This document shows, piece by piece, positions 1 to 12,893 of a stretch of 64,000 bases of DNA; position 1 is the first letter of the stretch; the number at the start of each line of letters is the position of its first letter. Origin of the DNA: Kofleriaceae bacterium (GTDB lineage: Bacteria; Myxococcota_A; Polyangia; Haliangiales; Haliangiaceae); NCBI GenBank assembly GCA_965215005.1, contig CBDCCZ010000054.1:1-64000 (forward strand), in the 5' to 3' direction. Under the pieces are notes generated by a model. It saw only the letters and a list, made by a program, of their open reading frames with translations. It made no database searches and was not told the DNA's origin. A program made the position numbers and the translations under genes.

Positions 1-1
1 A

Positions 2-82
2 CGCCTGTCACCACGCACTGCCGGCGTCTTGCGTCGCATCGAAGCGGGCGGCGAGGACGAGTCGCCGCCCGCAGACCGCTGA
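2..82 (+). CDS. Possible 3' end of an upstream gene (RLSPRTAGVLRRIEAGGEDESPPADR*)
   Basis: Open frame from the window edge to TGA at 80-82; no recognisable motif. Confidence 0.3.
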   Translation, partial: RLSPRTAGVLRRIEAGGEDESPPADR

Positions 83-129
83 GGCCCGAATGCCTCTGCC
101 CGCGGCGGGTCACCCGCGACAGGCCGCGT

Positions 130-135
130 TATACT
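130..135 (+). promoter_or_regulatory. -10 element TATACT just upstream of the M48 ATG (probable leaderless transcript)
   Basis: TATACT at 130-135, ATG at 142, no Shine-Dalgarno between them. Confidence 0.5.
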
Positions 136-141
136 CGCGAC

Positions 142-1038
142 ATGACTGGGGTCGACTTCGATTTCGCCCGCTACATCGCACATCGGCGTGGGCAGGTGGA
201 GCAGCGCGCCCGTGACGGCGCCGCCTACTCCTATAGCGGCGAGCGCAAGGTCCGCCGCGCCCTCGCCAGCGCCCGGCCGGTCACCATGGCGCTCGAAGCC
301 ACCACGCGCCTGTGGAAGAACGTCGCCAAGAGCGAGCTGCTCGGCACCTCCACGCAGGTTTCCTCGAGCCAACATTCCCGGCTGCACGCCGCATCGCGAC
401 GCGCCTTCGAGGCGATGCGGCTCGATCCAGAACCAGTTTATGTGGCCTCCGCAGGTTCCCGTGTGAAAGCGCAGGCGCTCGGCACCAACGATGATGCCTA
501 TATCGTCGTGCGTGCCGACCTCCTCGAGTTGCTTACCGACGATGAGCTCGTTGCGGTCGTCGGTCACGAGCTCGCGCACATTCAGAACAACCACGTGGTC
601 TACGCGACCTCGCTCTACTATCTCCAGCACGCGGCGATGAACTTCGTGCGCTGGATGGTGCAGCCAGCCATCATGACGCTGCAGGCGTGGTCTCGGCGCG
701 CCGAGATTACCTGCGATCGCGCCGCGCTCTTGTGCACGCGCGATTTGCGCACCGCGTTGTCAGCTATCGTCAAGGTCGAGCTCAGCCTCGAGGCCGGCGA
801 CACGTTCGACATCGACGCGTACATCACCGAGCTTCCCGACGGCAAGCGGGGCGTCGGGCGCGTGGCCGAGCTGTTTCGCAGCCACCCCTATCTGCCCAAG
901 CGTGTGCAGGCGTTACGGGTATTTGCTGAGTCGAGCTTCTATCGCAAGTACACCGGTGCCACGACCAAAGCCGGAGCCGAGTCGCTATCGGCCGAAGACG
1001 TCGACAATCAGGTCGCCGAGATCATGAGCGTGTTTTGA
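142..1038 (+). CDS. M48-family (Ste24/HtpX/Oma1-like) zinc metallopeptidase
   Basis: ELVAVVGHELAH (HExxH), third-ligand region SRRAEITCDR, C-terminal FRSHP..KRV. Confidence 0.9.
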   Translation: MTGVDFDFARYIAHRRGQVEQRARDGAAYSYSGERKVRRALASARPVTMALEATTRLWKNVAKSELLGTSTQVSSSQHSRLHAASRRAFEAMRLDPEPVYVASAGSRVKAQALGTNDDAYIVVRADLLELLTDDELVAVVGHELAHIQNNHVVYATSLYYLQHAAMNFVRWMVQPAIMTLQAWSRRAEITCDRAALLCTRDLRTALSAIVKVELSLEAGDTFDIDAYITELPDGKRGVGRVAELFRSHPYLPKRVQALRVFAESSFYRKYTGATTKAGAESLSAEDVDNQVAEIMSVF

Positions 1039-2831
1039 TGACGACACTTCTGGAAAAACATCAGCACTCCAAGCGGGCCATCATCGAGCAGCTCAGCCAA
1101 CTCGCGGCAGTGGCCGAGTCGATCGGCATGCGCACGCTGGCGCGCGACATCACCAGCCAACGCATCCCCAAACTCGAGAACGAGCGCTTCCACCTGGTGA
1201 TCCTCGGCGAGTTCAATCACGGCAAGTCGACCTTCGTGAACGCGCTGCTCGGCGCCGATGTTCTGCCCACCGGAATCACGCCGACGACCGCAGCGATCAA
1301 TCACGTCGTCTACTCAGAGGAGATCTACGCTCGCGCCCATACCAGCGAAGGCGAGGTCCTCGACGTCACGCCAGAGGAGCTGCAGAACTGGGTCACCGTC
1401 TCCGGTGATCGCACCCAGGAAGTGTCGTTCGTAGAGGTTGGCTATCCGTCGCCGCTGTTGCGCGAGAACATCGTCCTCGTCGACACCCCAGGGGTCAACG
1501 ACCTCAACGAAGCGCGCGCCGATATCACCTACGGCTATGTCCCTCGAGCGGACGCGGTGATCTTTCTGCTCGATGCCGGCCAGGCGCTCAAAGACTCCGA
1601 GCGCGAGTTCCTCTCGAGTCATGTGTTGCAGGGGTCCAAAGATCGACTCATCTTCGTGCTCGGCAAAGTCGACATCTTGAGCGAGGCCGAGCGCGGCGCA
1701 GTCATCGACTACGTCAAGAAAGGCCTCGGCAAGCTGATCGAGGCGCCGGCGCTGTATCCGGTTTCGGCGCGCAAAGACCTCGAGGGCCAGCGCGAGCAAT
1801 CGGGCATGACCGAGCTCCTGGCCTACCTCGAACGCTTTTTGAACACCGATCGCTCGCAGATCTTGCTCGACAATGCCGCCGGCGATGCGGCGCGAACCGC
1901 CGCCTATCTCGAGCAGAATCTCGGCGTTCGCATTCATGCCTACGATCTCGACGTGGTCGAGCTCGAGCAGCGCATCTTGCACGTCCGCAAGCAGCTCGAT
2001 GCCTCCAAGCGCACCCTCGATGACTTGCACGTCCGCATCGGTGCCGATTGCGAAGCGATCAAGTCGCAGGTGCGTTTGGACCTGGAGGGCTTCGCGAGGG
2101 CGTTCATCGACGCATTGCCCGGCGAGATCGATTCGGTGGACGCGAGCGAGGTCAAGCGCTACTTGCCCGGCTTCATCGAAGACAAGTTTCGCGAGTGGGC
2201 GGAGCTCGAGGGCGCCAAAGTGGCTGCGCAGCTCGAGAACCTCGCGCAGGACGTCATCGCCGTTACCAACGAGAACGTCTCGCAAGTATCCGCCGCTCTG
2301 GCTGAAAGCCTTGGCCCCGCCGATACCCGCGTCGACATCGATGTCGATAGCTTCAAGTACGACGTCGGCATCTACGCGGTGGGCGCGCTCGGGACCACGG
2401 TGTTTCTGTTCGTCAACACCCTCGCTGGAGGACTGCTCACACTGGCTGCCCCCATCTTGGCGATCGTCCTCAAAAGCAAAGTCGCCGGCGATATTCGCGA
2501 GCAGGCCAAAGAGAAGGTCCCAGGCGCCATCGTTCGCGCCAGAGATGCGATGCGGCCGCACTTTGACAAAGTGATCGATGCGTTCACGGCACGGCTGTCG
2601 CAGTTCGTCACCTCCGCGGGCGTCACGCTGTACAAAGGCATCTCCGAGGTCCTCGACCAAACCCTGGCCGATCGTCGCGAACGTGCCGGCGAGATCGATC
2701 AGCTGCGCACTCAAGCGCGGGCGCAGAAGCAGGCCGTCGAGAAGGCGCGCCAGGCCCTGCAAGAGCTGCGTAGCCAGGTGTGGAACCCCTCCGCCAACGC
2801 CAACGCCAACGCCAACACCGATCGCTCGTGA
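1038..2831 (+). CDS. Bacterial dynamin-like GTPase (DLP) with hydrophobic paddle
   Basis: GEFNHGKS, PTT, DTPG, GKVD; helical stalk; hydrophobic segment VGIYAVGALGTTVFLFVNTLAGGLLTLAAPILAIVL; TGATG overlap with the M48 stop. Confidence 0.9.
   Translation: MTTLLEKHQHSKRAIIEQLSQLAAVAESIGMRTLARDITSQRIPKLENERFHLVILGEFNHGKSTFVNALLGADVLPTGITPTTAAINHVVYSEEIYARAHTSEGEVLDVTPEELQNWVTVSGDRTQEVSFVEVGYPSPLLRENIVLVDTPGVNDLNEARADITYGYVPRADAVIFLLDAGQALKDSEREFLSSHVLQGSKDRLIFVLGKVDILSEAERGAVIDYVKKGLGKLIEAPALYPVSARKDLEGQREQSGMTELLAYLERFLNTDRSQILLDNAAGDAARTAAYLEQNLGVRIHAYDLDVVELEQRILHVRKQLDASKRTLDDLHVRIGADCEAIKSQVRLDLEGFARAFIDALPGEIDSVDASEVKRYLPGFIEDKFREWAELEGAKVAAQLENLAQDVIAVTNENVSQVSAALAESLGPADTRVDIDVDSFKYDVGIYAVGALGTTVFLFVNTLAGGLLTLAAPILAIVLKSKVAGDIREQAKEKVPGAIVRARDAMRPHFDKVIDAFTARLSQFVTSAGVTLYKGISEVLDQTLADRRERAGEIDQLRTQARAQKQAVEKARQALQELRSQVWNPSANANANANTDRS
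2793..2816 (+). repeat. (GCCAAC)4 in-frame microsatellite encoding ANANANAN
   Basis: Read directly near the 3' end of the first DLP gene. Confidence 0.9.
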
Positions 2832-2855
2832 GCGCGAGCTCGAAAAGGAGCTGAC

Positions 2856-5822
2856 GTGACGCTGTGGTCGCGGATCGAGCGCCGGCTAAATGATCTGGCC
2901 GATCGCGTCGATGACATCCTGCCGGATGAGTTCCGCGAACAGATTCAAAGCGCGCGACGTCTCATCGAACAGAGCAAACCGCGCGAAGCGGTCGAGATGC
3001 TGCAGGCGCTGCTCATGGTTCGCCCCGACCATGTCACAGCGCTCTTGCTCGTGGGCGCAGCGCAGCTCGAGCTCGCGCAGTTCCAAGCCGCGGGCGAGTC
3101 GTTCGATCGCGTGCTCGCGGTGCGACCTGAGTTTCCCGAAGCGCTGGTTGGACGCGGGCAGGCTCACTTGGGCAGCGGCGAGCTCGAGCTGGCGATTGGC
3201 GCGTTTGGTCAAGCGGTGCGTTCCGCCGGCGGCGATCGCTCGGTCTTGGCCGAAGCCTATCGGGGGCTTGGCATCGCCTATCGCCGCCGCGGTGAGCTAG
3301 ACAAAGCAATTCGCGAGCTGCGCAAAGCCGTCGCCGAAGCATCCGAGGATCCACTGGCACGTGCTGCGCTGGGCGAGGCGCTGCTCGCTGACGATCAAGT
3401 GTCATCCGAAGAAGCGCGGCGGCAGTTGCAGGAGGCGGCGCGGGTCACCGAGCCCCCCGCGCTAGCACTGCTCGCGCTTGGTCGCCTGGCATTGATCGAT
3501 GCCGACCACGCCGCGGCGCGGACTCGCTTCACGGATGCGTTGGCGCGCGCGGCAACGCAGGAGGAACGGTTTACAGCGCTCGAAGGGCTGGGTGATGCTG
3601 AGCTGGCGGCCGGCGACACCGCGGCGGCTCACCAGCAGTACTTGAAAGCGCTCGAGCTCGAGCCGAAGCGTTCCTCGCTGCACGCTCGGCTCGGGGCTCT
3701 GCACCGCCGCGTGCGCAATCACGACGCGGCCTTGGAAAGCTACGAGCGCGCGTTGGAGCAGCACCGCGACAGTGCGACCTTGCGCGACGCGCTGGAGACC
3801 GCGCTCGAGGCCGACCGACTGCAAGTAGCGGTGCGGCTCGCCAATGAGTTGCTTGCGGTAGATCCCAACGACACCCGGGCGCTCGTTGCGCGCGGCATCG
3901 CGCTAGCTAGGTCGTCGGACACCGAGGCAGCCCGCGCTACGTTTGCTGCGGTGCTCGCGCGCGGCAGCGACTTGCACGCTCATCTTGCGCTGGCACGTCT
4001 AGAGCTCGACGCCACGCCCAACCGAAGCGGCGGAATCAGCGCCGCGGCTGCTGCGCTCGCAGCGCTGCGCGAGGAGCCCACCAATCCGCTCGGCCGCGAG
4101 CTGCTAGCGGAAGCGCGGGCGCGCGAGCTCGACCTCGATACCCGTGAGCGCTGCGACAGTCGCGACGACAGCGACATGTACCAGGTTGCTGTCGATTTGC
4201 AGCGCGTGGCGCTCGCGCGTAGCGAGCTCTCAGATCTGGTTTCAGACGCTGCACAGGCGGCTTCCGACTTCGACCAGCCCCTGCTCGTAACGGTCATGGG
4301 CGAGTTCTCGAGCGGCAAGTCGAGCTTTGTGAATGCGTTTCTCGGTCATGAGATCGCAGCTACAGGGATTACGCCGACGACTGCCACGATCAACGTCGTC
4401 AAGTATGGCCGCGAGCGCGGCGGCCGCATCATTGGCCACGACGGCTCGGTGCGTACGCTCGACGTCGAAGAGCTTTACGAGGCATTGCATGCACTCGAGC
4501 CTGAGGCGGTCCGGGCGATTGAGCGGGTCGAGATCTTGTTTCCGTTGCCGCTCCTCGAGCGGGTCAACATCGTCGACACGCCAGGCCTCAACTCGATCGT
4601 ACCCGAGCACGAAGAGGTTGCGCGTGGGTTCATCAGCCGCGCCGACGCGGTGATCTGGGTGTTCACTGCCGGCCAAGGAGGCAAAGCCAGTGAGCGCGCC
4701 GCGCTGGAGAGCATTCGCGGCGAAGGCAAGCGCGTGCTCGGCGTGCTCAACAAGCGCGATCAGCTAAGCGCTGCTGACGCCGACGCCGTCATCGGCCATA
4801 TCGCCGCCGAACTCGGCGATATCGTCGAGCTCGTGGTGCCATTCTCCGCGCGCGAGGCGCTAGCTTATAAACGGCTGCCCGGCGCTACTACGACCGAAGA
4901 CCAGCGCCGCAATGTCTCCGCCGTGCACGCCGATGACAACGCAGCAGACGGCAACTGGCTCGCGCTCGCTAGCGCGCTCGAAGAGCGGTTCTTTGCCCAC
5001 GCTCGCGAGCTCAAACGCAACGCGTGCAGCCGGCGCCTCAGCGTACTGCTCGAGCGCGCACGCGGACGCGTCCGCGCCGAGGAGCACGTCGCGCAGCAAG
5101 CCGCGGCGAGCTTGCGCGACGCCGCGACCACACTCGAAGAGACCCGACTCGGATTCGTCGATGCGACCGTGGCGCGCGAGCGTGCACGGCTTAGCGAACA
5201 GGTGGCGAGTCTCTACCGTCGCGCCGCACGGGAAGTGCTCGAGTTGGTGCGGCCACGCCGGCTGCCGTTTGGCTCGCACAGCGCCACCCCCGCGGATCGC
5301 GACTATCTGATCTCGCTGCTCGATAGTGGCTACGAAGCCGCGCTAGCCGCCAGCCGGCGCGCGGTATTAGCCGAGCTCGGAAGCTACGCCACCGCCGCCG
5401 GCCAGAGCGGCGCCGCCGCGGCCGATATCATCGGCAATGAGGCGGTTGGCGACATTGCGCGCACCGGGCTGGATGCGGTGCGCTTGGTCGAGGCTCGCGT
5501 CTACGAGCGCTGCCGCGCGTATCTACAAGGATACCTGCGAGGTGGGTACGTCGATTCATTGTTCCGCCGCGATCTCCCCAAGCTCGAGCTCACCGAAGAC
5601 GCCGTCTATCACGCTCTGTATCGCGATGCGCCCGATCTCGACCAAGAGATCACGCTGCGCCTCGCCACCGCAGGCACCGAGGCACTCGATAGCTTGGCGC
5701 AACGCCTCGAGCACTGGGCCGGCGTTGCCGAGGTCCTCGCCTACGACCTCGAGGTCGGCATTGGTCGCGCCCTCGATAGCCTCGATGCTCGCCGGCGCGC
5801 GCTAGAGAGCTCGCAAAGCTGA
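2856..5822 (+). CDS. TPR-repeat / dynamin-like GTPase fusion protein
   Basis: About 430 aa of TPR-like helices, then GEFSSGKS, PTT, DTPG, NKRD; SD AAAAGGAG before the GTG. Confidence 0.88.
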   Translation: MTLWSRIERRLNDLADRVDDILPDEFREQIQSARRLIEQSKPREAVEMLQALLMVRPDHVTALLLVGAAQLELAQFQAAGESFDRVLAVRPEFPEALVGRGQAHLGSGELELAIGAFGQAVRSAGGDRSVLAEAYRGLGIAYRRRGELDKAIRELRKAVAEASEDPLARAALGEALLADDQVSSEEARRQLQEAARVTEPPALALLALGRLALIDADHAAARTRFTDALARAATQEERFTALEGLGDAELAAGDTAAAHQQYLKALELEPKRSSLHARLGALHRRVRNHDAALESYERALEQHRDSATLRDALETALEADRLQVAVRLANELLAVDPNDTRALVARGIALARSSDTEAARATFAAVLARGSDLHAHLALARLELDATPNRSGGISAAAAALAALREEPTNPLGRELLAEARARELDLDTRERCDSRDDSDMYQVAVDLQRVALARSELSDLVSDAAQAASDFDQPLLVTVMGEFSSGKSSFVNAFLGHEIAATGITPTTATINVVKYGRERGGRIIGHDGSVRTLDVEELYEALHALEPEAVRAIERVEILFPLPLLERVNIVDTPGLNSIVPEHEEVARGFISRADAVIWVFTAGQGGKASERAALESIRGEGKRVLGVLNKRDQLSAADADAVIGHIAAELGDIVELVVPFSAREALAYKRLPGATTTEDQRRNVSAVHADDNAADGNWLALASALEERFFAHARELKRNACSRRLSVLLERARGRVRAEEHVAQQAAASLRDAATTLEETRLGFVDATVARERARLSEQVASLYRRAAREVLELVRPRRLPFGSHSATPADRDYLISLLDSGYEAALAASRRAVLAELGSYATAAGQSGAAAADIIGNEAVGDIARTGLDAVRLVEARVYERCRAYLQGYLRGGYVDSLFRRDLPKLELTEDAVYHALYRDAPDLDQEITLRLATAGTEALDSLAQRLEHWAGVAEVLAYDLEVGIGRALDSLDARRRALESSQS

Positions 5823-5909
5823 CCGCTTTGCAGTCGATCAGCCTGAATTGATCACTCCAGTCATGCTCGGCTCGACGAGCGTCGGACACTGCTCGTAAAG
5901 TAGCGCCAC

Positions 5910-6626
5910 GTGAAGCTCACCCTCGGCATCGACGAAGCAGGGCGCGGCCCCGTCATCGGCCCCATGGTCATGGCGGCGGTGTGCCTCGACACGCACGCCG
6001 CCCGAGCGCTCACCCGCGCCGGTCTGCGCGACTCCAAGGGCTACGGTGCCGGAGACAAGGCCCGCCGCGCTCGTGCGGCGCTTGCGGAGCGGGTCGAGCG
6101 GGTGGCTCGCCATGTCGAGGTTCGCGTGGTCGACGTGCTGGAGATCGACCGCCGCGTCGTGCGCGGCGAGCTCAACGTGCTCGAGCGCGAGGTCGCGTCG
6201 GACTTCATAGCGCGCGCGCCGGTGTGTCACCGCATCGTCGCCGACGGCAGAACGCTGTTCCGCAAGCTCACGGCACAGCACCCGCACTTGGAAGCCCACG
6301 ACCACGGCGAATCGCGCCACGCCGCCGTCGCTGCTGCGTCGGTCGTCGCCAAGCACCTGCGAGACAGTCTGTTCTTCGGCATCTCTCAGCGCTATGAGCC
6401 CACGTTTGGCGCGATCACCGGCGGAGGTTACGTCAACGCCGCCACCCGACGTTTCTTACGCGCCTATGCACAGCGCCACGGAACCCTTCCGCCCGAGGCG
6501 CGCCGTTCGTGGCCGCACAACTATCTGCACGATATTCTCGGCGACAGCTTTGATCCCTTTGCCGACACCCCTGCCCTGCACGCCCCGCAGCTCGGACTCT
6601 TCACCGACGCCTCGGCCCCCCGCTAG
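5910..6626 (+). CDS. rnhB: Ribonuclease HII (archaeal-like sequence)
   Basis: GIDEAGRGPVIGPMV, RDSK, VAAASVVAK..RD. Confidence 0.92.
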   Translation: MKLTLGIDEAGRGPVIGPMVMAAVCLDTHAARALTRAGLRDSKGYGAGDKARRARAALAERVERVARHVEVRVVDVLEIDRRVVRGELNVLEREVASDFIARAPVCHRIVADGRTLFRKLTAQHPHLEAHDHGESRHAAVAAASVVAKHLRDSLFFGISQRYEPTFGAITGGGYVNAATRRFLRAYAQRHGTLPPEARRSWPHNYLHDILGDSFDPFADTPALHAPQLGLFTDASAPR

Positions 6627-6689
6627 CGTCGTTCCTCTCGCTCGTACCACTCCGCCGCAAGGCTCCTGCCGCGACGCATTTCGCAGCAG

Positions 6690-7295
6690 TCACGGCGCTG
6701 CCTTGGCCATCTCTTTGTACTCATCGAGCTCGAGGCGAAGCTTCTCCAAGGCGTAGCGCATCCGGCTCTTGACGGTGTTCTCGGGCACGCCAACCACCGC
6801 CGCGATGTCCTTGAACGGCATCTCGAGAAACTCGCGCATCAAGAACACCTCGCGTTGCTCATCCGAGAGCGTTGCGATTGCCTGCTGTAGTCGCTCATGA
6901 AGCTGCCGATTGCCGACCTGCCGATCCGAGGCCATCTCATCGCCGGCGATCACGTCCATCAGCGAGCCGCTTTCGTCACCGGCGCGCAGCGGCGCGTCGA
7001 GCGACTGGTGACGCCGATGCTTTTTACGCCGCGACTGATCGACGCAGAGGTTGCGAGCAATCGTGTAGAGCCAGGTGGTGAACTTGGCCTTCTTCTGATA
7101 GCCCGCCGCTCCTTTGATGACCCGCAGAAACGTCTCTTGCAGCAGATCCTCAGCGACCTCGCGCGACCCGACGAAGCGATAGATGAAGTTGAAGATCGGC
7201 TTGCGGTGGCGCGCAAGCAGCACCTCGAACGCCGCGACCTCGCCCTTTTGATAGCGAAACATCAGGGCTTCGTCGGCGTCTTCGCGAACCGTCAT
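6690..7295 (-). CDS. ECF-type RNA polymerase sigma factor
   Basis: AEDLLQETFLRV, FTTWLYTIARN, region-4 HTH GVPENTVKSRMRYA. Confidence 0.92.
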   Translation of the reverse strand: MTVREDADEALMFRYQKGEVAAFEVLLARHRKPIFNFIYRFVGSREVAEDLLQETFLRVIKGAAGYQKKAKFTTWLYTIARNLCVDQSRRKKHRRHQSLDAPLRAGDESGSLMDVIAGDEMASDRQVGNRQLHERLQQAIATLSDEQREVFLMREFLEMPFKDIAAVVGVPENTVKSRMRYALEKLRLELDEYKEMAKAAP

Positions 7296-7404
7296 ATCCT
7301 TTCGCCCAGCCTCGCCAGCACCCTGCGCAGCCAGCGCTTCACGACGTAGAACGCGACATTACCGCAACGACGAGAGCACAGCAAACGCGGCTCGTGATTC
7401 CGCG

Positions 7405-8253
7405 CTACCTGCGTTGGCAGTGCGGGCAATGGAACGTTGCACGCCCCTGTTGCACGGTGCGTCGAATGCTCCCTGAGCATCCTCGGCGCATGCAGCGGTC
7501 GCCAGCGCGGTCGTACACCCAGAGGTAGTGGCCGTGCTCGCCGCTGCGACCATCGGCGCTTACGAAGTCGCGCAAGCTAGTGCCGCCGTGGTCGAGCGCG
7601 CGGAGTAGCACCGCCACCACCGCCTCCGCAAGACGCTCCGCTCGCGGCCTGCTCAGCAAGTGGCTCGCGAGAGTTGGGCGGATTTGCGCCTGCCAAAGCG
7701 CTTCGGAAGCGTAGATGTTGCCAATCCCGGCAACCACGCGCTGATCCAGGAGGAGCTGTTTGATGCTCCTGCGCGTCCGCAACGCGTGCTCGTGAAGGTA
7801 GCCACCGGTGAGCTCTCCCGACAATGGCTCGATGCCCAGATGCATAAGCGCTGGATGGTCTCGCTCGGATCCGCGACGCACGACGTCCGCCTGGCCAAAG
7901 CGCCGCGGATCGGAGAACCGCAGATCGAGGGCTTGGCCAGCGCGCAGCAACGAAAATCGCAGGTGGGTATGGTTTGCCATCGCGGAGTCACTGGGCAGCA
8001 GCCGCAACCGCCCACTCATTCCAAGGTGAATCAGCGCCGACTCCGAGCGATCGATAAAGTCGATCAGCAGATATTTGCCGAGCCGACGAACTCCCTCGAT
8101 CGTGCTTCCAACCGCCGCCTGCCGCAGAGCAGTTACATCGAGCGGCCGACCGAGACGGAGCGGCAGTCCACTCGTCCAAAGTTCGGTCACGCCCCAGCCA
8201 ATGGCAGGCGCCAGCGCGCGCCGCACGGTCTCGACCTCGGGCAACTCAGGCAT
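7405..8253 (-). CDS. mutM: Formamidopyrimidine-DNA glycosylase
   Basis: N-terminal MPELPEVE (start placed at 8253), HLGMSG, GIGNIYASE, C-terminal Zn finger. Confidence 0.97.
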   Translation of the reverse strand: MPELPEVETVRRALAPAIGWGVTELWTSGLPLRLGRPLDVTALRQAAVGSTIEGVRRLGKYLLIDFIDRSESALIHLGMSGRLRLLPSDSAMANHTHLRFSLLRAGQALDLRFSDPRRFGQADVVRRGSERDHPALMHLGIEPLSGELTGGYLHEHALRTRRSIKQLLLDQRVVAGIGNIYASEALWQAQIRPTLASHLLSRPRAERLAEAVVAVLLRALDHGGTSLRDFVSADGRSGEHGHYLWVYDRAGDRCMRRGCSGSIRRTVQQGRATFHCPHCQRR

Positions 8254-9112
8254 TCGAAACGGGGAGCGCGTGCGCCAGACGCGCAAAGTCGGCAATGGTG
8301 AGCGTCTCGCCGCGGCGTTGGCCATCGATCTCGGTCACAGTGAGCGCCGCGTCGACAGCGGGAACTGGGAACACCGCGCGCAGCGCATTGCGCAGGGTTT
8401 TGCGTCGCTGCCCGAAGGCGGCATGAACCACGTTGGCGTAGTGGGTTTCGTCGGCGATAGGTACGCGCGGCTCTCCTCCAGGAAGTGGATCGAGGCGCAG
8501 CACCGTCGATTCGACTTTGGGGGGCGGCTCGAACGCGCCCCGACCAACCCGCAACACCACCCGCGCGTCGACATACGTGGAGATGAGGACGCCGAGCGCG
8601 CCATAGGCTTTGGTGCCAGGCGCGGCCACAATGCGATCTGCCATCTCGCGCTGCAGCATCACCACCGCCCGGCGCACGTGTCGTCGCGACGCCACCACCC
8701 GAAACAAGATCTGCGAAGCGATGTTGTACGGCAGATTGCCGCACACCGTAATTGGCTCGCACGCCCACTTCGACACCGCGTCGAGGTCGTAGAGAAGAGC
8801 ATTGGCTTCTTCGATCACGATGTTGTCGAAGTGGCCGAGCTCAGCGCGCAGCACCGCGACCATGTCGCGATCACGCTCAACCGCCAGCACTTTGCCCTCC
8901 GGCACTCGCTCCGCCAGGCGGGCAGTGAGGGTGCCGAGGCCGGCACCAATCTCCACGATCCAATCGGTATCGGCCGCGACCGTGGCGTCGACGATGGCGC
9001 GAAACGCTCGCTCACCCACCAGGAAGTTCTGTCCGAAGGATTTTTTGGCCGCTAGCCCGTGGCGTCGAAGCAGGGTTCGGGCATCAGAAAACGGTGGTTT
9101 CAAGTAGGCCAT
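8246..9112 (-). CDS. rsmA: 16S rRNA m6(2)A dimethyltransferase KsgA
   Basis: KKSFGQNFL, EIGAGLG, GNLPYNI, QRRKTLRN. Confidence 0.97.
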   Translation of the reverse strand: MAYLKPPFSDARTLLRRHGLAAKKSFGQNFLVGERAFRAIVDATVAADTDWIVEIGAGLGTLTARLAERVPEGKVLAVERDRDMVAVLRAELGHFDNIVIEEANALLYDLDAVSKWACEPITVCGNLPYNIASQILFRVVASRRHVRRAVVMLQREMADRIVAAPGTKAYGALGVLISTYVDARVVLRVGRGAFEPPPKVESTVLRLDPLPGGEPRVPIADETHYANVVHAAFGQRRKTLRNALRAVFPVPAVDAALTVTEIDGQRRGETLTIADFARLAHALPVSNA

Positions 9113-10119
9113 CCCGACGGCAGCGGCAACGACGAGGCGGCATTGAGCTCGAGGCCATCGGAACGACCTGCCGCCAGCGCGTGATATCCCGCGGCGGCGA
9201 TCATCGCAGCGTTGTCGGTGCAGCGCTTCGGCGGCGGCACGTAGACGGAAAACCCATCGGCATCGCCAGCCTCACGCATCGCGCGGCGCAGCTGCGAGTT
9301 GGCCGCTACGCCGCCGCAGACCTGCACGTGAGCAATACCTTCAGAACGCACCGCCTCACGAGTCTTGCGGACCAACACCTCGACCACGCACGCCTGAAAA
9401 CTGGCGCAAAAATCATTGAGAGCGGTGCCAGAAGGCACCCCTTGCGCGCGCACGTGGTTGAGCGCCGCGGTCTTTACGCCGCTGAATGAGAAGTCTAGGC
9501 CCGAGGCCTTGCCAGTCATCAGTCGAGGAAAGGCGACCGCGCTCGCATCGCCATCGGCGGCTAGACGGTCAATCACAACCCCGCCGGGATACCCCAAGCC
9601 GCAGAGCTTGGCGACCTTGTCAAACGCCTCGCCCGCCGCATCGTCTCGGGTGGCGCCGAGCTCCTCCATCCGGGCTGGAGCATCGACGCGAAGGATCGAC
9701 GAATGTCCCCCGGACACCACCAGAGCGAGATGGGGAAACGGTGGCGGGTTCGGCTCGAGATACACCGCGGAGAGATGCCCATGGAGATGATGAACGCCGA
9801 TTAGCGGAATCTGCCGGGCATACGCGATCGCCTTGGCCGTCTGCAGTGCAACCAGCAGCGCCCCGACCAAGCCAGGCCCACGAGTCACTGCAATGCCGTC
9901 GATATCCGCGAGCGTGAGCTGGGCGTGGTCGAGCGCAGCTCGCAGCACCGGCACTACGTGCGCAACATGAGCGCGCGAGGCGAGCTCCGGCACCACCCCG
10001 CCATACGGTGCATGCACCTCGTGTTGCGAGGCGACCAGGTCCGAAAGCACGCGGCAACCGTCTTCGACGACAGCGGCGGCGGTCTCATCGCACGAGCTCT
10101 CTAGCCCTAGAATGCGCAT
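9100..10119 (-). CDS. tsaD: tRNA t6A threonylcarbamoyltransferase TsaD
   Basis: MRILGLESSCDET, GGVVPELASRAH, VSGGH, DDAAGEAFDK, TDNAAMIA. Confidence 0.97.
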   Translation of the reverse strand: MRILGLESSCDETAAAVVEDGCRVLSDLVASQHEVHAPYGGVVPELASRAHVAHVVPVLRAALDHAQLTLADIDGIAVTRGPGLVGALLVALQTAKAIAYARQIPLIGVHHLHGHLSAVYLEPNPPPFPHLALVVSGGHSSILRVDAPARMEELGATRDDAAGEAFDKVAKLCGLGYPGGVVIDRLAADGDASAVAFPRLMTGKASGLDFSFSGVKTAALNHVRAQGVPSGTALNDFCASFQACVVEVLVRKTREAVRSEGIAHVQVCGGVAANSQLRRAMREAGDADGFSVYVPPPKRCTDNAAMIAAAGYHALAAGRSDGLELNAASSLPLPSGWPT

Positions 10120-10229
10120 GAAGCGGCGAACATAGCAGTTTTCGCGCGACTGACAGCACCGCGCCACGCTGTCCCGCGCCCGTGGAATTCATCGCAACAC
10201 CGGTAGCGGCTCGAGCTACATCCTGAACC

Positions 10230-12893
10230 TCAGTCAACCCCGAGCAAGCGGCGGATTTGCTCTGCACGAACTCCCCGCGGGCGCAGCGCGAGGTAGCGGC
10301 GATACGCTGATTCCGCGGCGCCCTGCTCTTCCCGCTCCCAGTGCAGTCCGCCTTTGGTAAGCCACGCGTCCGCATCGCGCGGATTTTCGCTCACAGCAGT
10401 CGTCGCCGCGGCCAGCGCCTCGTCGACATTCCCTAGCTCCCAAAGGATTTCGGCGCGGAGCCCGAGCGCCCGAGCGCTGCGACCCGCGGCCAGCGATGCG
10501 TCGATTTCTTCCAGCGCCCGATCATAATCGCCCCGATCGACCGCGACCCGCGCTCGCCGGTACCGCTCTTGTCCCGATGGCTGGATCGTTGCGACCGGCG
10601 CGGCCGACGGTGTTGAAGAAGACTCTGCCGCCGCCGCGGGGGACGGCGTTGGCGCACCGCTCGAACCCGTGAGCGCACTGCGGTCGGCCGCCGCAGCATC
10701 GAACACGAGCGCCTTCGAATCCGCGCGTTGGGCGGGCTCGATGCCGGCCGGTGCGACCGCGTCATGGCCGGTGGATGCCGTTTGCACCGGCTCCGAGGAG
10801 CCTGTTAGCGCTTCCCCGCCGGAGGCCTCGCTCCCGTCACTACCAAGCTGCGCCGCCGCGCGCACCATCACAATCGCGGCCAACAGGGCTGCTGCCCCTG
10901 CAGCGACCAGCGCTGACCGGCGCCATCGCTGGGGCCGCGCGATCTCATCGAAGGTCAGCGCGTCTAGCTCCACCGCTACCCGCGACTGCGTTCGCTCATG
11001 CTCCTGCTGCCGTTGAGAGACCGCTTGCCCATGCTCATCGTCGAGCTCCTCCGGGAGCACCGGGATGATCTCGCTCGTCGGTGTATCTCCGTCCCACGAG
11101 TCGTCCTCCGAGTCATCGAGGTCGTCGACCACCACCTTGCGCATCCCAGCATGCGACCGGCCCCGAAGGGGAGCAATCGTGACCAGCTCGCGCGCCGTAG
11201 ACGCTCGAGGTTCCTCGCGGCGCAGCGACACCTCTCCCGATACCGACGCCATGTCGGCTCCTGCGGAGGAGATCATCCGCGCCGGCCGATGCTCCTCGAG
11301 CACTACGCCGTCGTCGGTCTCAGGGATCGGCAACGGTGTCGCATCGCCTGCGTACTCATCGTCGAAATCGATCGTAATGGCGATACCCGGATTCGATTCG
11401 CACCGGTCTTCCTGGACCGGCGACTCCGCCTCGTCCTCGACCTCAGCGCTACTTGCCTCAGCATCCGTGGCGTTCGTTGCGGAGAAGATTCCGCCGCCAC
11501 CCTCTGTTGCGCTACTGCGCGGATCTCTAGTTCCTTCTGCCTCCAAGGCAACGTCCGCGGTCGCGCCCTCCTCGCGGGCCTCAGCCGCCGGCTCCTCGGA
11601 ACGCGGGTCTTGCTCCCTTCGCGCATCGCCGGTAGCCGCCCGGCTGAGACGCTCCTCCACGTCGGTGATTCTTGGGAGCCGCAGTCGTCGAAGCATCACC
11701 CGGCCAACAGCTGGAACGGGATCAGCGCGATCCTTCGCTTCCCCCATGGATGGGGAGTCCGGCGCCACCGCTACGTCCGTGGCGGCGGGCGATGAACCGC
11801 CGTCCGCCGCCATGGATGCCGACGGCGGACTTTCGGCGCCAGATGCCTGCACCTCCACGAGTGGAGGCTGTGTCGATGCGGAGTCGAGAGGCGAGATTTT
11901 AGACTCGCCATCGCTCTGCGGGGAGTTGGATAGCTCCGCATCATGCCCTTGCTCCGGCACCAGGAGCCCCGAGGCGAAGAGCTCGGCAATGGCCGTCAAG
12001 CTCTCCAACTCACCGCAACGGCCATCATCGACCACCTCAGCAATAGTGCGCCGGCCGTCGAACAACTTGATTAGCCCATTCAGCTCATCCCGCAGCTCGG
12101 GAAGCTGCTCCGCCAGTTTCGTTGGCTCCACAACGAATCGCGCCGCGAGCGGCGGCAACTGGGCGAGCAACCGGAGTCGCTCATCAAGCCGCCGCATGCC
12201 CTCCATCAGCAGTCCTTGCGAGGAAGCAGCGATCACGTCGTTGCGACGAACTTGCCGAAACACCAGCTCAAACTCGCCTTGCGACCAGGTCAGTAGGCGA
12301 TAGAAGCCTTCCTCTCCCTGGAGATGCCCGAGCTCGCTGTCAATGACCTTGCCACCGCGGAAGAACACGGTCGCGCGGCTACCCGACTCCGAGGTTACCA
12401 ACAGCAACCCAGATTTCCGGCTCAGCTCGATCGTTTGGATGAGATCGGGAACGCCGAGGTCTTCCAGACTGCCGGCAAAGCGCGTTCGAGCATCGGGTGC
12501 TTTCGCGATGCGCGCCCGCTGCCGCTTACGCAACAACATCCGCACCCGCGTGAGGATCTCCTTGATGTAGATGGGCTTGGTGAGATAGTCCTCGACCCCC
12601 AGCTCCAGTCCACGAATCTTCTGCTCGATGGCGGCGTGCGCGGTTAAGAAGATGAATGGGATGTCGCAAGCGTTGGCATCACGTTTGAGTGCATCGCAGA
12701 ATGCGAAACCGTCCATCTTGGGCATCTCGACATCAGAGATGACGAGGTCTGGCAGCCGTGCCTGCACGTGCGCAAGAGCCTCGTGGCCGTCCCGCGCCAC
12801 GCGCACCTCGAAGCCAGCCTTGCGCAGCGACACCTGGAGAACCTGCAGGCTCCGTTCATCGGCATCGACGAGCAGTAAGCTGTGGGTTTCCAA
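10230..12893 (-). CDS. Response regulator: REC + DUF4388/PatA_N-like domain + acidic linker + TM helix + C-terminal TPR
   Basis: REC motifs PDLVISDVEMPKMDG and YLTKP; FAGSLEDLGVPDLIQTI..RKSG; TM ALVAAGAAALLAAIVMV; TPR-like C-terminus. Confidence 0.8.
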   Translation of the reverse strand: METHSLLLVDADERSLQVLQVSLRKAGFEVRVARDGHEALAHVQARLPDLVISDVEMPKMDGFAFCDALKRDANACDIPFIFLTAHAAIEQKIRGLELGVEDYLTKPIYIKEILTRVRMLLRKRQRARIAKAPDARTRFAGSLEDLGVPDLIQTIELSRKSGLLLVTSESGSRATVFFRGGKVIDSELGHLQGEEGFYRLLTWSQGEFELVFRQVRRNDVIAASSQGLLMEGMRRLDERLRLLAQLPPLAARFVVEPTKLAEQLPELRDELNGLIKLFDGRRTIAEVVDDGRCGELESLTAIAELFASGLLVPEQGHDAELSNSPQSDGESKISPLDSASTQPPLVEVQASGAESPPSASMAADGGSSPAATDVAVAPDSPSMGEAKDRADPVPAVGRVMLRRLRLPRITDVEERLSRAATGDARREQDPRSEEPAAEAREEGATADVALEAEGTRDPRSSATEGGGGIFSATNATDAEASSAEVEDEAESPVQEDRCESNPGIAITIDFDDEYAGDATPLPIPETDDGVVLEEHRPARMISSAGADMASVSGEVSLRREEPRASTARELVTIAPLRGRSHAGMRKVVVDDLDDSEDDSWDGDTPTSEIIPVLPEELDDEHGQAVSQRQQEHERTQSRVAVELDALTFDEIARPQRWRRSALVAAGAAALLAAIVMVRAAAQLGSDGSEASGGEALTGSSEPVQTASTGHDAVAPAGIEPAQRADSKALVFDAAAADRSALTGSSGAPTPSPAAAAESSSTPSAAPVATIQPSGQERYRRARVAVDRGDYDRALEEIDASLAAGRSARALGLRAEILWELGNVDEALAAATTAVSENPRDADAWLTKGGLHWEREEQGAAESAYRRYLALRPRGVRAEQIRRLLGVD

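What the first reader, a model, noticed from the sequence alone, without database searches (positions are those of the whole stretch)
142..5822. M48 peptidase + two dynamin-like GTPases: candidate protease-controlled membrane-remodelling system (OMA1-OPA1-like logic)
Seen: an M48 HExxH peptidase whose stop overlaps the start of a paddle-bearing dynamin-like protein (TGATG at 1036-1040), followed 24 bp later by a TPR-dynamin fusion with a strong SD. Established: bacterial DLPs often act in pairs in membrane fusion, repair or phage resistance, and mitochondrial OMA1, an M48 peptidase, cleaves the dynamin OPA1. Inference: the peptidase processes or activates the DLP pair, with the TPRs as sensor or adaptor. 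I am not aware of this three-gene module having been characterised.
Basis: partly seen in the sequence, partly recalled or inferred. Interest (0 to 1): 0.82.

Follow-up and report, generated by a model that had tools for sequence, protein, structure and literature searches.

The report
Zinc-protease partner of bacterial dynamins
A soil myxobacterium encodes a zinc protease with no membrane anchor directly in front of two dynamin-like membrane-remodelling GTPases, and the protease-dynamin pairing recurs across several bacterial phyla, though relatives that lost the protease active site show that cutting is not the pair's obligatory switch.

Summary
Window 142-5822 carries three co-directional genes: an M48 peptidase (HELAH intact), a BDLP-class dynamin with a hydrophobic paddle whose ATG overlaps the M48 stop, and a TPR-dynamin fusion 24 bp further on behind an AAGGAG site.

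The conserved core is M48 plus DLP1.
- The two genes are adjacent in 32 of 32 relatives that have DLP1, and neither was found in the other 8.
- In a phylum sample, all 23 genomes with DLP1 also have the M48.
- A dynamin follows on the same strand in 74 of 80 loci from Myxococcota, Chloroflexota, Cyanobacteria and Bacillota.
- Two proteins 52% identical to each other carry both parts in one chain.
- A complex prediction gave weak support.

The OMA1-OPA1 reading is only partly supported.
- The M48 has no membrane segment.
- DLP1 is BDLP/mitofusin-like and has no N-terminal anchor to clip.
- HExxH is lost in 8 of 20 close relatives, through at least five different substitutions, yet those genes stay under purifying selection beside an intact DLP1.

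Best reading: the M48 is a bound partner that DLP1 brings to the membrane. It is probably active here, but its conserved role does not depend on catalysis.

I found no paper describing the pairing. This scan noted it before on other genomes.

The parts
2..82 (+). 3' end of a gene of the LPG_synthase_TM (PF03706) family, cut off by the contig start
   Evidence: Frame 2 reads RLSPRTAGVLRRIEAGGEDESPPADR*, which resembles the C-terminal tails of the PF03706 gene lying directly upstream of the M48 in relatives. This gene is linked only within the window's clade: it was found in 18 of 100 loci.
142..1038 (+). M48-family zinc peptidase, 298 aa, soluble with no signal peptide or transmembrane segment. 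HELAH at nt 565-579 and E188 at nt 703-705 are intact.
   Evidence: Pfam PF01435 scores 86.1 bits against a cutoff of 20.3. It is not HtpX: the best NCBIfam equivalog scores 46.6 bits against a cutoff of 341. The KD19 maximum is 1.12. The model has pLDDT 91.6, and its best PDB neighbours are ZMPSTE24, 3c37 and the HtpX domain, all at weak E of about 0.03.
1036..1040 (+). TGATG overlap between the M48 stop and the DLP1 start (translational coupling)
   Evidence: Read directly. Overlaps of the same kind occur in 35 of 77 related loci, using heuristic start-codon choices.
1038..2831 (+). DLP1, a BDLP-class dynamin-like GTPase of 597 aa. P-loop GEFNHGKS at nt 1206-1229; hydrophobic paddle at about aa 445-485 (nt 2370-2492).
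   Evidence: Dynamin_N scores 8.4e-31. The best solved relative by sequence is Nostoc BDLP 2j68 at 1.5e-20. The model matches 2j69 at 1.8e-23, followed by IniA and the C. jejuni DLP1/2 pair. The paddle is called from KD19 1.91. GTPase motif columns are invariant in 33 orthologues.
2845..2850 (+). AAGGAG ribosome-binding site, 5 nt before the GTG of DLP2
   Evidence: Sequence printed.
2856..5822 (+). TPR-DLP2 fusion, 988 aa. TPR array at about aa 30-420 (nt 2943-4115); GTPase at aa 478-633 (nt 4287-4754). No hydrophobic segment.
   Evidence: Pfam TPR families and Dynamin_N at 1e-25. The KD19 maximum is 1.48. G1 GEFSSGKS, DTPG and NKRD are present. The same fusion is listed in Haliangium/Kofleriaceae-named proteins, for example Haliangium ochraceum P0320.
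5910..6626 (+). RNase HII gene, co-directional and following DLP2. This is lineage-specific synteny and probably not part of the system.
   Evidence: PF01351 at 9.4e-24. It follows DLP2 in 21 of 100 loci, all from the clade that carries TPR-DLP2.

Best explanation
The core of the locus is an ancient two-gene module. A cytoplasmic M48-fold protein without a membrane anchor is made together with a paddle-bearing BDLP-class dynamin (DLP1) and most likely binds it. DLP1 then brings the M48 to the membrane.

Shown:
- the gene pair is conserved, co-occurs and is sometimes fused;
- the M48 has no membrane segment of its own;
- DLP1 has a BDLP-like fold with a paddle.

Inferred:
- The two proteins form a stoichiometric complex.
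- Outside the window's order the HE[CT]GH site is strictly kept, so in most lineages the partner is an active protease working at the site that the dynamin marks. Its substrate is unknown: it could be membrane proteins or the dynamins themselves.
- The window's clade added a soluble TPR-dynamin (DLP2). Within that clade the catalytic residues were lost repeatedly without loss of the gene. The conserved role there is therefore binding or regulation of DLP1, and proteolysis is dispensable.
- In this genome H142, E143, H146 and E188 are all intact, so the protein is probably still an active peptidase.
For: 1. Adjacency and co-occurrence.
- An M48 orthologue lies directly upstream of DLP1, on the same strand, in 32 of 32 relatives that have DLP1. 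Neither gene was found in the other 8 of the 40 relatives.
- In a sample of 121 genomes of the phylum, 24 have the M48 and 23 have DLP1, and all 23 with DLP1 also have the M48. The two genes are adjacent in 20 of 22 relatives; in the other 2 they sit on separate contigs.

2. Linkage across phyla.
- In 74 of 80 loci found with M48 patterns, a dynamin follows on the same strand. These loci come from Myxococcota, Bradymonadales, Chloroflexota, Cyanobacteria, Symbiobacteriaceae and Clostridia.
- Of the 6 without a dynamin, 5 end less than 500 bp after the M48. One is a true exception.

3. Independence from the flanks.
- The flanking genes differ between clades, so the pairing is not just lineage synteny.
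- In one relative 5.9 kb are inserted between DLP1 and DLP2. In none of the 20 fetched relatives is M48 more than 76 bp from DLP1.

4. Coupling. Stop and start overlap in 35 of 77 loci, and the gap is at most 30 nt in 17 more.

5. Fusion. P0144 (906 aa) and P0299 (891 aa) carry M48 and DLP1 in one chain with the same junction. They are 52% identical over 897 columns, so the fusion is inherited and is not a sequencing error.

6. Complex prediction for DLP1 plus M48: weak support.
- Score 0.51 against a best control of 0.00.
- The mark was reached by 116 of 157 solved complexes and 2 of 215 mismatched pairs. At 0.60 or under, it was reached by only 18 of those 157 solved complexes and by both mismatches that passed.
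- The runs agree in at least 38% of their contacts, and the partner's pLDDT is at least 73.

7. Membrane anchoring. The M48 has no hydrophobic segment (KD19 maximum 1.12), while DLP1 has one at 445-485 (1.91).

8. A role that does not need catalysis.
- HExxH is lost in 8 of 20 relatives: NELGH twice, HQLGH twice, RTLGY twice, WACAE and HALGH. The alignment there is unambiguous.
- It is also missing in 31 of 119 close homologues and 61 of 135 representatives at 50% identity.
- dN/dS of the dead pairs is 0.06, 0.18 and 0.31. For their neighbouring DLP1 genes it is 0.04, 0.13 and 0.27, and for live M48 pairs it is 0.02, 0.30 and 0.41.
- The DLP1 GTPase motifs are invariant in all 33 aligned orthologues, including those from genomes with a dead M48.

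9. Catalysis is ancestral. The site is intact as HE[CT]GH plus E188 in 20 of 20 genomes of the unbiased phylum sample outside the window's order.
Against: - No experiment and no expression data bear on the locus.
- The complex score is only 'weak support', and no interface was returned.
- Relatives are not independent, so the adjacency counts within the class overstate the evidence. The surrounding 20 kb is also syntenic there.
- The 80 cross-phylum loci were found with patterns that include the HExxH stretch. They say nothing about how often the site is intact.
- One member of the M48 subfamily (L041, Clostridia) has no dynamin within 7 kb.
- In Clostridia and Symbiobacteriaceae an unknown protein of 547-579 aa lies between the M48 and the dynamins.
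- The strict conservation of HE[CT]GH outside the window's order fits a proteolytic core function as well as it fits mine. The OMA1-like reading therefore remains open for those lineages.
- The start codons used for the gap counts are heuristic.
Confidence: 0.55

Rival explanations
1. OMA1-OPA1-like control. The M48 cleaves DLP1 or DLP2 at a defined site and thereby switches the dynamin pair on or off.
For: The genetic evidence is the same as for the best explanation: linkage, coupling and fusion. The active site is intact in this genome. It is also intact in 20 of 20 genomes of the phylum sample. Weak support for contact between M48 and DLP1: score 0.51 against a best control of 0.00, with the calibration counts given under the best explanation.
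Against: - HExxH is lost in 8 of 20 close relatives whose DLP1 and DLP2 are retained and whose M48 gene is under purifying selection.
- DLP1 has no N-terminal membrane anchor whose removal could release a soluble form. Its only hydrophobic stretch is the internal paddle.
- DLP1 is of the BDLP/IniA/mitofusin class.
- The M48 is soluble, not membrane-embedded.
- No cleavage site can be read from the sequences.
Confidence: 0.18
2. Anti-phage defence system of the LeoA/LeoBC type (PADLOC's dynamin models; called Eleos in this scan's earlier notes), with the M48 as an added effector or sensor.
For: DLP1 matches PADLOC LeoA PDLC03839 at 1.4e-23 over nearly the full model (positions 14-554 of 559). 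DLP2 matches LeoBC at 3.9e-15. The module is patchy within the phylum (24 of 121 genomes) yet present in distant phyla, which could reflect horizontal transfer.
Against: - The M48 matches no PADLOC model.
- The locus lies among housekeeping genes: his genes, folK, RNase HII, fpg, ksgA and tsaD. That synteny is stable over an order and beyond, there is a single copy per genome, and the fetched flanks show no mobile-element genes.
- M48 and DLP1 identities fall in step from close to distant relatives, as expected for vertical descent.
- The LeoA matches are what any BDLP-class protein would give. In the fold search LeoA 4aur ranks only 12th.
Confidence: 0.12
3. No physical partnership. The M48 is a general stress or quality-control peptidase that is merely co-transcribed with the dynamins in one envelope-stress regulon.
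For: M48 enzymes such as HtpX act in membrane-protein quality control, and bacterial dynamins act in membrane repair (both recalled from the literature, not tested here). The complex score is only weak.
Against: - Co-occurrence is perfect in two samples.
- An inherited fusion into one chain exists.
- Stop-start overlaps are frequent.
- Catalytically dead copies are retained under purifying selection.
- A soluble M48 without an anchor would have no access to membrane substrates on its own.
Confidence: 0.08

Closest known systems
Nostoc punctiforme BDLP (PDB 2j68/2j69) and the Campylobacter jejuni DLP1/DLP2 pair (5owv/5oxf); also mycobacterial IniA (6j72)
   Same: DLP1 is of this class. 2j68 is the best solved relative by sequence (1.5e-20). 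By fold the best is 2j69 at 1.8e-23, followed by IniA and 5oxf/5owv. It has the GTPase, a long helical neck and trunk, and a hydrophobic paddle. Two different dynamins are encoded in tandem, as in the published pairs.
   Different: The papers I searched describe no M48 partner for these proteins. In Jilly et al. 2018 (PMC5827413; I read passages only) 'peptidase' and 'protease' occur 0 times. DLP2 here carries an N-terminal TPR array of about 400 aa. I did not test whether the Nostoc BDLP operon itself has an M48 gene upstream.
Mitochondrial OMA1-OPA1 (M48 peptidase cleaving a dynamin-family GTPase)
   Same: A pairing of an M48-family peptidase with a dynamin-superfamily membrane GTPase. The OMA1-OPA1 facts come from PMC2806285 (search listing and abstract only) and from recall.
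   Different: - The M48 here is soluble with no transmembrane segment.
- DLP1 is BDLP/mitofusin-like with an internal paddle and no N-terminal anchor.
- Catalysis is dispensable in 8 of 20 relatives.
- I did not test homology to OMA1 beyond shared Pfam family membership, because no OMA1 sequence was available to me.
LeoA/LeoBC dynamin defence system (PADLOC models; ETEC LeoABC; PDB 4aur)
   Same: Two adjacent dynamin-like GTPases that match the LeoA and LeoBC models.
   Different: That system has no M48 component. The context here is housekeeping and vertically inherited. LeoA ranks only 12th among the fold matches.
HtpX, Ste24/ZMPSTE24 and BepA (characterised M48 peptidases)
   Same: The Pfam M48 core, HExxH plus a downstream Glu, and the nearest structures ZMPSTE24 4aw6 and the HtpX domain 3cqb.
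   Different: - No transmembrane helices and no signal peptide.
- An N-terminal helical extension of about 75 aa lies outside the Pfam model, which covers residues 77-259.
- The protein fails every HtpX equivalog cutoff (46.6 bits against 341).
- The subfamily includes many members with a dead active site.

Membership tests
Peptidase family M48 (PF01435) | Profile match above the curated threshold | tested here: met
   86.1 bits against a gathering score of 20.3, over residues 77-259.
Peptidase family M48 (PF01435) | HExxH zinc site plus a downstream Glu ligand | tested here: met
   HELAH at 142-146 and E188 in AEITCDR. The assignment of E188 as the third ligand rests on alignment and recall, not on a structure.
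Peptidase family M48 (PF01435) | M48 fold | tested here: inconclusive
   The model has pLDDT 91.6. Its best PDB matches are M48 members (4aw6, 3c37, 3cqb) and BlaR1, but only at E of about 0.03 and TM of about 0.37. A profile built from the subfamily alignment finds the HtpX domain 3cqb at 2.1e-8.
HtpX (NCBIfam equivalogs) | Score above the equivalog cutoff | tested here: not met
   The best is NF002669 at 46.6 bits against a cutoff of 341.
HtpX (NCBIfam equivalogs) | Integral-membrane topology (recalled as typical of HtpX) | tested here: not met
   No 19-residue window reaches 1.6 on the Kyte-Doolittle scale; the maximum is 1.12.
Dynamin family / bacterial dynamin-like proteins | Dynamin_N GTPase domain with G1, G3 and G4 motifs | tested here: met
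   DLP1 scores 107.7 bits and DLP2 91.1 bits against a cutoff of 27. GEFNHGKS/DTPG/KVD and GEFSSGKS/DTPG/NKRD are present.
Dynamin family / bacterial dynamin-like proteins | BDLP architecture: helical neck and trunk with a membrane paddle | tested here: met
   For DLP1, the model matches 2j69 over 677 columns at E 1.8e-23 and there is a hydrophobic hairpin at 445-485. The Pfam helical-domain model PF21808 is just below its threshold (26.0 against 28.3). DLP2 has no paddle by hydropathy, and its fold was not modelled.
OMA1-OPA1 type protease-controlled dynamin | Membrane-embedded M48 protease | tested here: not met
   No transmembrane segment.
OMA1-OPA1 type protease-controlled dynamin | Dynamin with an N-terminal membrane anchor and a cleavage site that releases a short form | tested here: not met
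   The only hydrophobic stretch in DLP1 is internal (445-485), and DLP2 has none. No cleavage site could be identified.
OMA1-OPA1 type protease-controlled dynamin | Proteolysis required for the system | tested here: not met
   Not met for the clade as a whole: HExxH is lost in 8 of 20 relatives while the genes are retained under purifying selection. It cannot be tested for this genome's own, intact copy with these tools.
LeoA/LeoBC dynamin defence system (PADLOC) | Adjacent LeoA-like and LeoBC-like genes | tested here: inconclusive
   HMM matches at 1.4e-23 (LeoA) and 3.9e-15 (LeoBC). The library gives no curated cutoffs, and such matches are expected for any BDLP-class pair.
LeoA/LeoBC dynamin defence system (PADLOC) | Protection against phage | not testable with these tools
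   This needs an infection assay. The housekeeping context argues against a defence island.

The most novel reading that the evidence does not exclude
The M48-dynamin pair is an ancient two-protein membrane machine found across phyla. The dynamin delivers a bound protease to damaged or remodelling membrane, making it a prokaryotic counterpart, and conceivably a forerunner, of the protease-dynamin logic of mitochondria. In the window's clade a TPR-dynamin has taken over control, and the protease is repeatedly turning into a pseudo-enzyme that acts as a regulatory subunit.
Probability: 0.2. Interest if true: 0.85.

Novelty: new variant of a known kind. Interest (0 to 1): 0.62.

Why it matters
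Bacterial dynamin-like proteins have solved structures, but how they are regulated and what partners they have remains poorly understood. A dedicated partner that is conserved across phyla and sometimes fused to the dynamin gives a concrete two-protein system to reconstitute.

Natural active-site losses occur next to intact dynamins. This offers a ready-made experiment that separates the partner's binding role from its proteolytic role.

The pairing also allows a bacterial test of whether protease-dynamin coupling, known from mitochondrial OMA1-OPA1, is a general design. Cultured carriers appear among the hits: Haliangium ochraceum, Labilithrix luteola DSM 27648 and a Polyangium strain.

Tried and rejected
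- Expression: no RNA holder listed for window 1-6700. I did not lay any reads, so co-transcription remains untested.
- Promoter and terminator scan of 1-7400: 0 promoter-like sites (0.9 expected) and 3 terminator-like sites (4.5 expected). None fell at a gene boundary, so the scan was uninformative.
- One search failed because my coordinates contained stop codons. I corrected them.
- the 31-sequence alignment A1 had no stretch conserved enough for a pattern scan. I used the 10-sequence alignment A2 instead. This biased the 80 loci towards intact HExxH, so I did not use them for active-site frequencies.
- P0176 (378 aa, M48 plus Dynamin_N) looked like a third fusion, but it contains low-complexity frameshift-like sequence. 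I rejected it as an artefact.
- L101 shows a 1430-aa open frame across M48 and DLP1, but its DLP1 match is split between frames. I rejected it as an assembly error.
- LPG_synthase_TM upstream and RNase HII downstream were considered as system members. I rejected them as core parts because they are linked only in the window's clade (18 and 21 of 100 loci).
- Synechocystis cyanoglobule proteome (PMC12223511, passages read): it lists an M48 (sll1280) and an FZO-like dynamin (sll0804). By their locus names these are not neighbouring genes, and they were not shown to belong to this subfamily. This is a lead only.
- Foldseek search of the M48 model against the PDB gave no match at E of 0.001 or better.
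- I tested whether cyanobacterial locus L040 holds the Nostoc BDLP orthologue. Its third dynamin region matches 2j68 at only 1e-34, so the result is inconclusive.
I resent it with the field added and nothing else changed.

Full report
**The observation**

The window is the first 64 kb of contig C54 of a 6.2-Mb assembly in 62 contigs, 92.8% complete. Names that sources give to close homologues place it among Haliangium/Kofleriaceae-like Myxococcota.

Three co-directional ORFs occupy 142-5822.
- M48 gene (142-1038): 298 aa. Pfam Peptidase_M48 scores 86.1 bits against a cutoff of 20.3. HELAH lies at residues 142-146 and E188 lies in AEITCDR.
- DLP1 (1038-2831): its ATG overlaps the M48 stop as TGATG at 1036-1040. 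It encodes 597 aa, and Dynamin_N scores 8.4e-31.
- DLP2 (2856-5822): after a 24-bp gap holding AAGGAG at 2845-2850, a GTG opens a 988-aa protein. It has TPR repeats over about residues 30-420 and Dynamin_N at 478-633.

**What the parts are**

The M48 protein has no hydrophobic segment (KD19 maximum 1.12). It fails all HtpX equivalog cutoffs, the best scoring 46.6 bits against 341. It matches no PADLOC model.

Its AlphaFold model is confident (pLDDT 91.6). It resembles solved M48 structures only weakly: ZMPSTE24, 3c37 and the HtpX domain all match at E of about 0.03. A profile of the subfamily finds the HtpX domain at 2.1e-8. It is therefore a divergent, soluble, cytoplasmic M48 with an N-terminal helical extension of about 75 residues.

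DLP1 has a single hydrophobic hairpin at about 445-485. Its closest solved relative by sequence is Nostoc BDLP, followed by the C. jejuni pair, IniA and the mitofusins. Its model (pLDDT 81) matches 2j69 at 1.8e-23. It belongs to the BDLP/mitofusin class and has a paddle.

DLP2 has intact G motifs but no hydrophobic segment. Its GTPase domain is 41% identical to that of DLP1.

**Is the peptidase really tied to the dynamins?**

Among 40 relatives, 32 have a DLP1 orthologue. In all 32 an M48 orthologue lies directly upstream on the same strand. The other 8 have neither gene, and one of them has only a weak M48 paralogue.

The surrounding 20 kb is also syntenic in this class. It reads his genes, a helicase, folK, an FAA hydrolase, an FHA protein and an LPG_synthase_TM gene. 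Then come M48, DLP1, DLP2 and RNase HII, followed by an ECF sigma factor, fpg, ksgA and tsaD on the other strand. Within-class adjacency alone is therefore weak evidence.

Four further lines go beyond synteny.

1. Co-occurrence in a wider sample.
   - In an evenly drawn sample of 121 genomes of the phylum, the M48 subfamily is found in 24 and DLP1 in 23.
   - All 23 genomes with DLP1 also have the M48.
   - The two genes are adjacent in 20 of 22 relatives. The other 2 have them on separate contigs.

2. Linkage across phyla.
   - A pattern scan of one genome per species returned 80 loci. They come from Myxococcota, Bradymonadales, Chloroflexota, Cyanobacteria, Symbiobacteriaceae and several Clostridia.
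   - In 74 of the 80 a dynamin follows on the same strand.
   - Of the 6 without one, 5 end within 500 bp of the M48, and 1 (L041) is a true exception.
   - The flanks differ between clades.

3. Coupling. Stop and start overlap in 35 of 77 loci, and the gap is 30 nt or less in 17 more, using heuristic start choices.

4. Fusion.
   - Two proteins from different sources, P0144 (906 aa) and P0299 (891 aa), carry M48 and DLP1 in one chain with the same junction.
   - They are 52% identical over 897 columns, so the fusion is inherited.

A complex prediction for DLP1 and M48 gave weak support.
- The score was 0.51 against a best control of 0.00.
- The mark was reached by 116 of 157 solved complexes and 2 of 215 mismatched pairs. 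At 0.60 or under, it was reached by only 18 of those 157 solved complexes and by both mismatches that passed.
- The runs agree in at least 38% of their contacts, and the partner's pLDDT is at least 73.

**The core and the elaboration**

Outside the window's order, the Myxococcota loci hold only M48 and DLP1. In 18 of 18 fetched loci no second dynamin follows downstream.

The TPR-DLP2 gene, the upstream LPG_synthase_TM gene and the downstream RNase HII gene travel with the window's clade and a few other loci. The first 82 bases of the window are the tail of that LPG_synthase_TM gene, cut by the contig start.

In one relative (G022), 5.9 kb of opposite-strand genes for Big_2-domain proteins separate DLP2 from DLP1. 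In contrast, M48 and DLP1 are never more than 76 bp apart in the 20 relatives fetched.

Chloroflexota and Cyanobacteria have M48 followed by two or three dynamins. Clostridia and Symbiobacteriaceae have an unknown protein of 547-579 aa between the M48 and two dynamins.

**The active site**

In the 20 relatives I fetched, chosen without regard to the motif, HExxH is intact in 12 and lost in 8.
- NELGH in two genomes of one genus.
- HQLGH in two genomes of another genus.
- RTLGY in two genomes of a third genus.
- WACAE and HALGH in one genome each.

The alignment around the motif is unambiguous. Five different replacements in five genera imply repeated loss.

Wider samples agree. 31 of 119 close homologues and 61 of 135 representatives at 50% identity lack HExxH.

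The dead genes are not decaying.
- dN/dS within the three dead pairs is 0.06, 0.18 and 0.31.
- For the adjacent DLP1 genes it is 0.04, 0.13 and 0.27.
- For three live M48 pairs it is 0.02, 0.30 and 0.41.

The DLP1 GTPase motif columns are invariant in all 33 aligned orthologues. Outside the window's order the site is strictly kept: HE[CT]GH plus E188 in 20 of 20 genomes.

Catalysis is therefore ancestral and normally conserved. In the clade that gained TPR-DLP2 it has become dispensable, while the protein itself has not.

**Most likely mechanism**

I take the M48 protein to be a bound partner of DLP1 that relies on the DLP1 paddle to reach the membrane.
- Where the site is intact, as in this genome, it probably cleaves something at the membrane patch that the dynamin engages. 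The substrate is unknown.
- The conserved function that does not need catalysis is binding or regulation of DLP1.

The linkage, the lack of an anchor and the dispensability of catalysis are shown. The physical complex and any substrate are inferred.

**Comparison with what is known**

The dynamins belong to the BDLP class. The tandem arrangement matches the published pairs (Nostoc, C. jejuni).

The OMA1-OPA1 analogy fails three of its defining features here.
- The protease is not membrane-embedded.
- The dynamin has no N-terminal anchor to clip.
- Proteolysis is not indispensable.

It remains a possible description of the lineages with an intact site.

The LeoA/LeoBC defence reading rests only on generic HMM matches. 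The housekeeping, vertically inherited context argues against it.

**Novelty**

Six full-text searches found no paper on an M48 partner of bacterial dynamins. These searches combined terms for bacterial dynamin or dynamin-like protein with terms such as M48, metalloprotease, peptidase, HtpX, pseudopeptidase, operon, tandem and BDLP.
- In the survey of cyanobacterial dynamin neighbourhoods (PMC5827413, passages read) 'peptidase' and 'protease' occur 0 times. I did not read its supplementary sheet.
- The review of metallopeptidase pseudoenzymes (PMC11266112, search listing only) shows 0 occurrences of M48.

This scan has noted the same pairing before on other genomes, namely e1-7612676, e1-2698332 and e1-2076109. 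My analysis reached the same points independently and adds two. Active-site loss is repeated and subject to purifying selection. In my samples it is concentrated in the clade with TPR-DLP2.

I rate the finding a new variant of a known kind. It is well supported as a gene association and untested as a mechanism.

Noticed in passing
window 6690-7295 (-), 7405-8325 (-), 8246-9112 (-), 9100-10167 (-): Downstream on the opposite strand lie an ECF sigma factor, Fpg DNA glycosylase, KsgA/RsmA methyltransferase and TsaD. This housekeeping block is syntenic in relatives.
   Followed up: partly
window 10230-12893 (-): An 887-aa protein combining a response-regulator receiver, DUF4388 and C-terminal TPRs. 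It was not studied further.
   Followed up: no
L030:7852-9495 and L022:7928-9667: In Enterocloster and Symbiobacteriaceae loci a protein of 547-579 aa with no Pfam match lies between the M48 and two dynamin genes. A small ORF of 192-234 aa lies between the two dynamins. These may be additional system components in Bacillota.
   Followed up: partly
L015:6725-12645 (relative G022): About 5.9 kb of opposite-strand genes, including two Big_2-domain proteins, are inserted between DLP1 and TPR-DLP2. M48 and DLP1 are left together.
   Followed up: partly
L041:6548-7819: A Clostridia member of the M48 subfamily (423 aa, with an N-terminal extension) has no dynamin within 7 kb. Galactose-metabolism genes lie downstream and a kinase-domain protein lies upstream.
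   Followed up: partly
protein P0323 (1192 aa): A TPR-DLP2 homologue whose precomputed Pfam list also includes RNase HII. It suggests a read-through or a fused gene call across the DLP2-rnhB junction in one metagenome contig.
   Followed up: no
L040:2400-4499: In a filamentous cyanobacterium, one open frame after the M48 and a first dynamin holds two dynamin-like regions. The second matches Nostoc BDLP 2j68 at 1e-34.
   Followed up: partly
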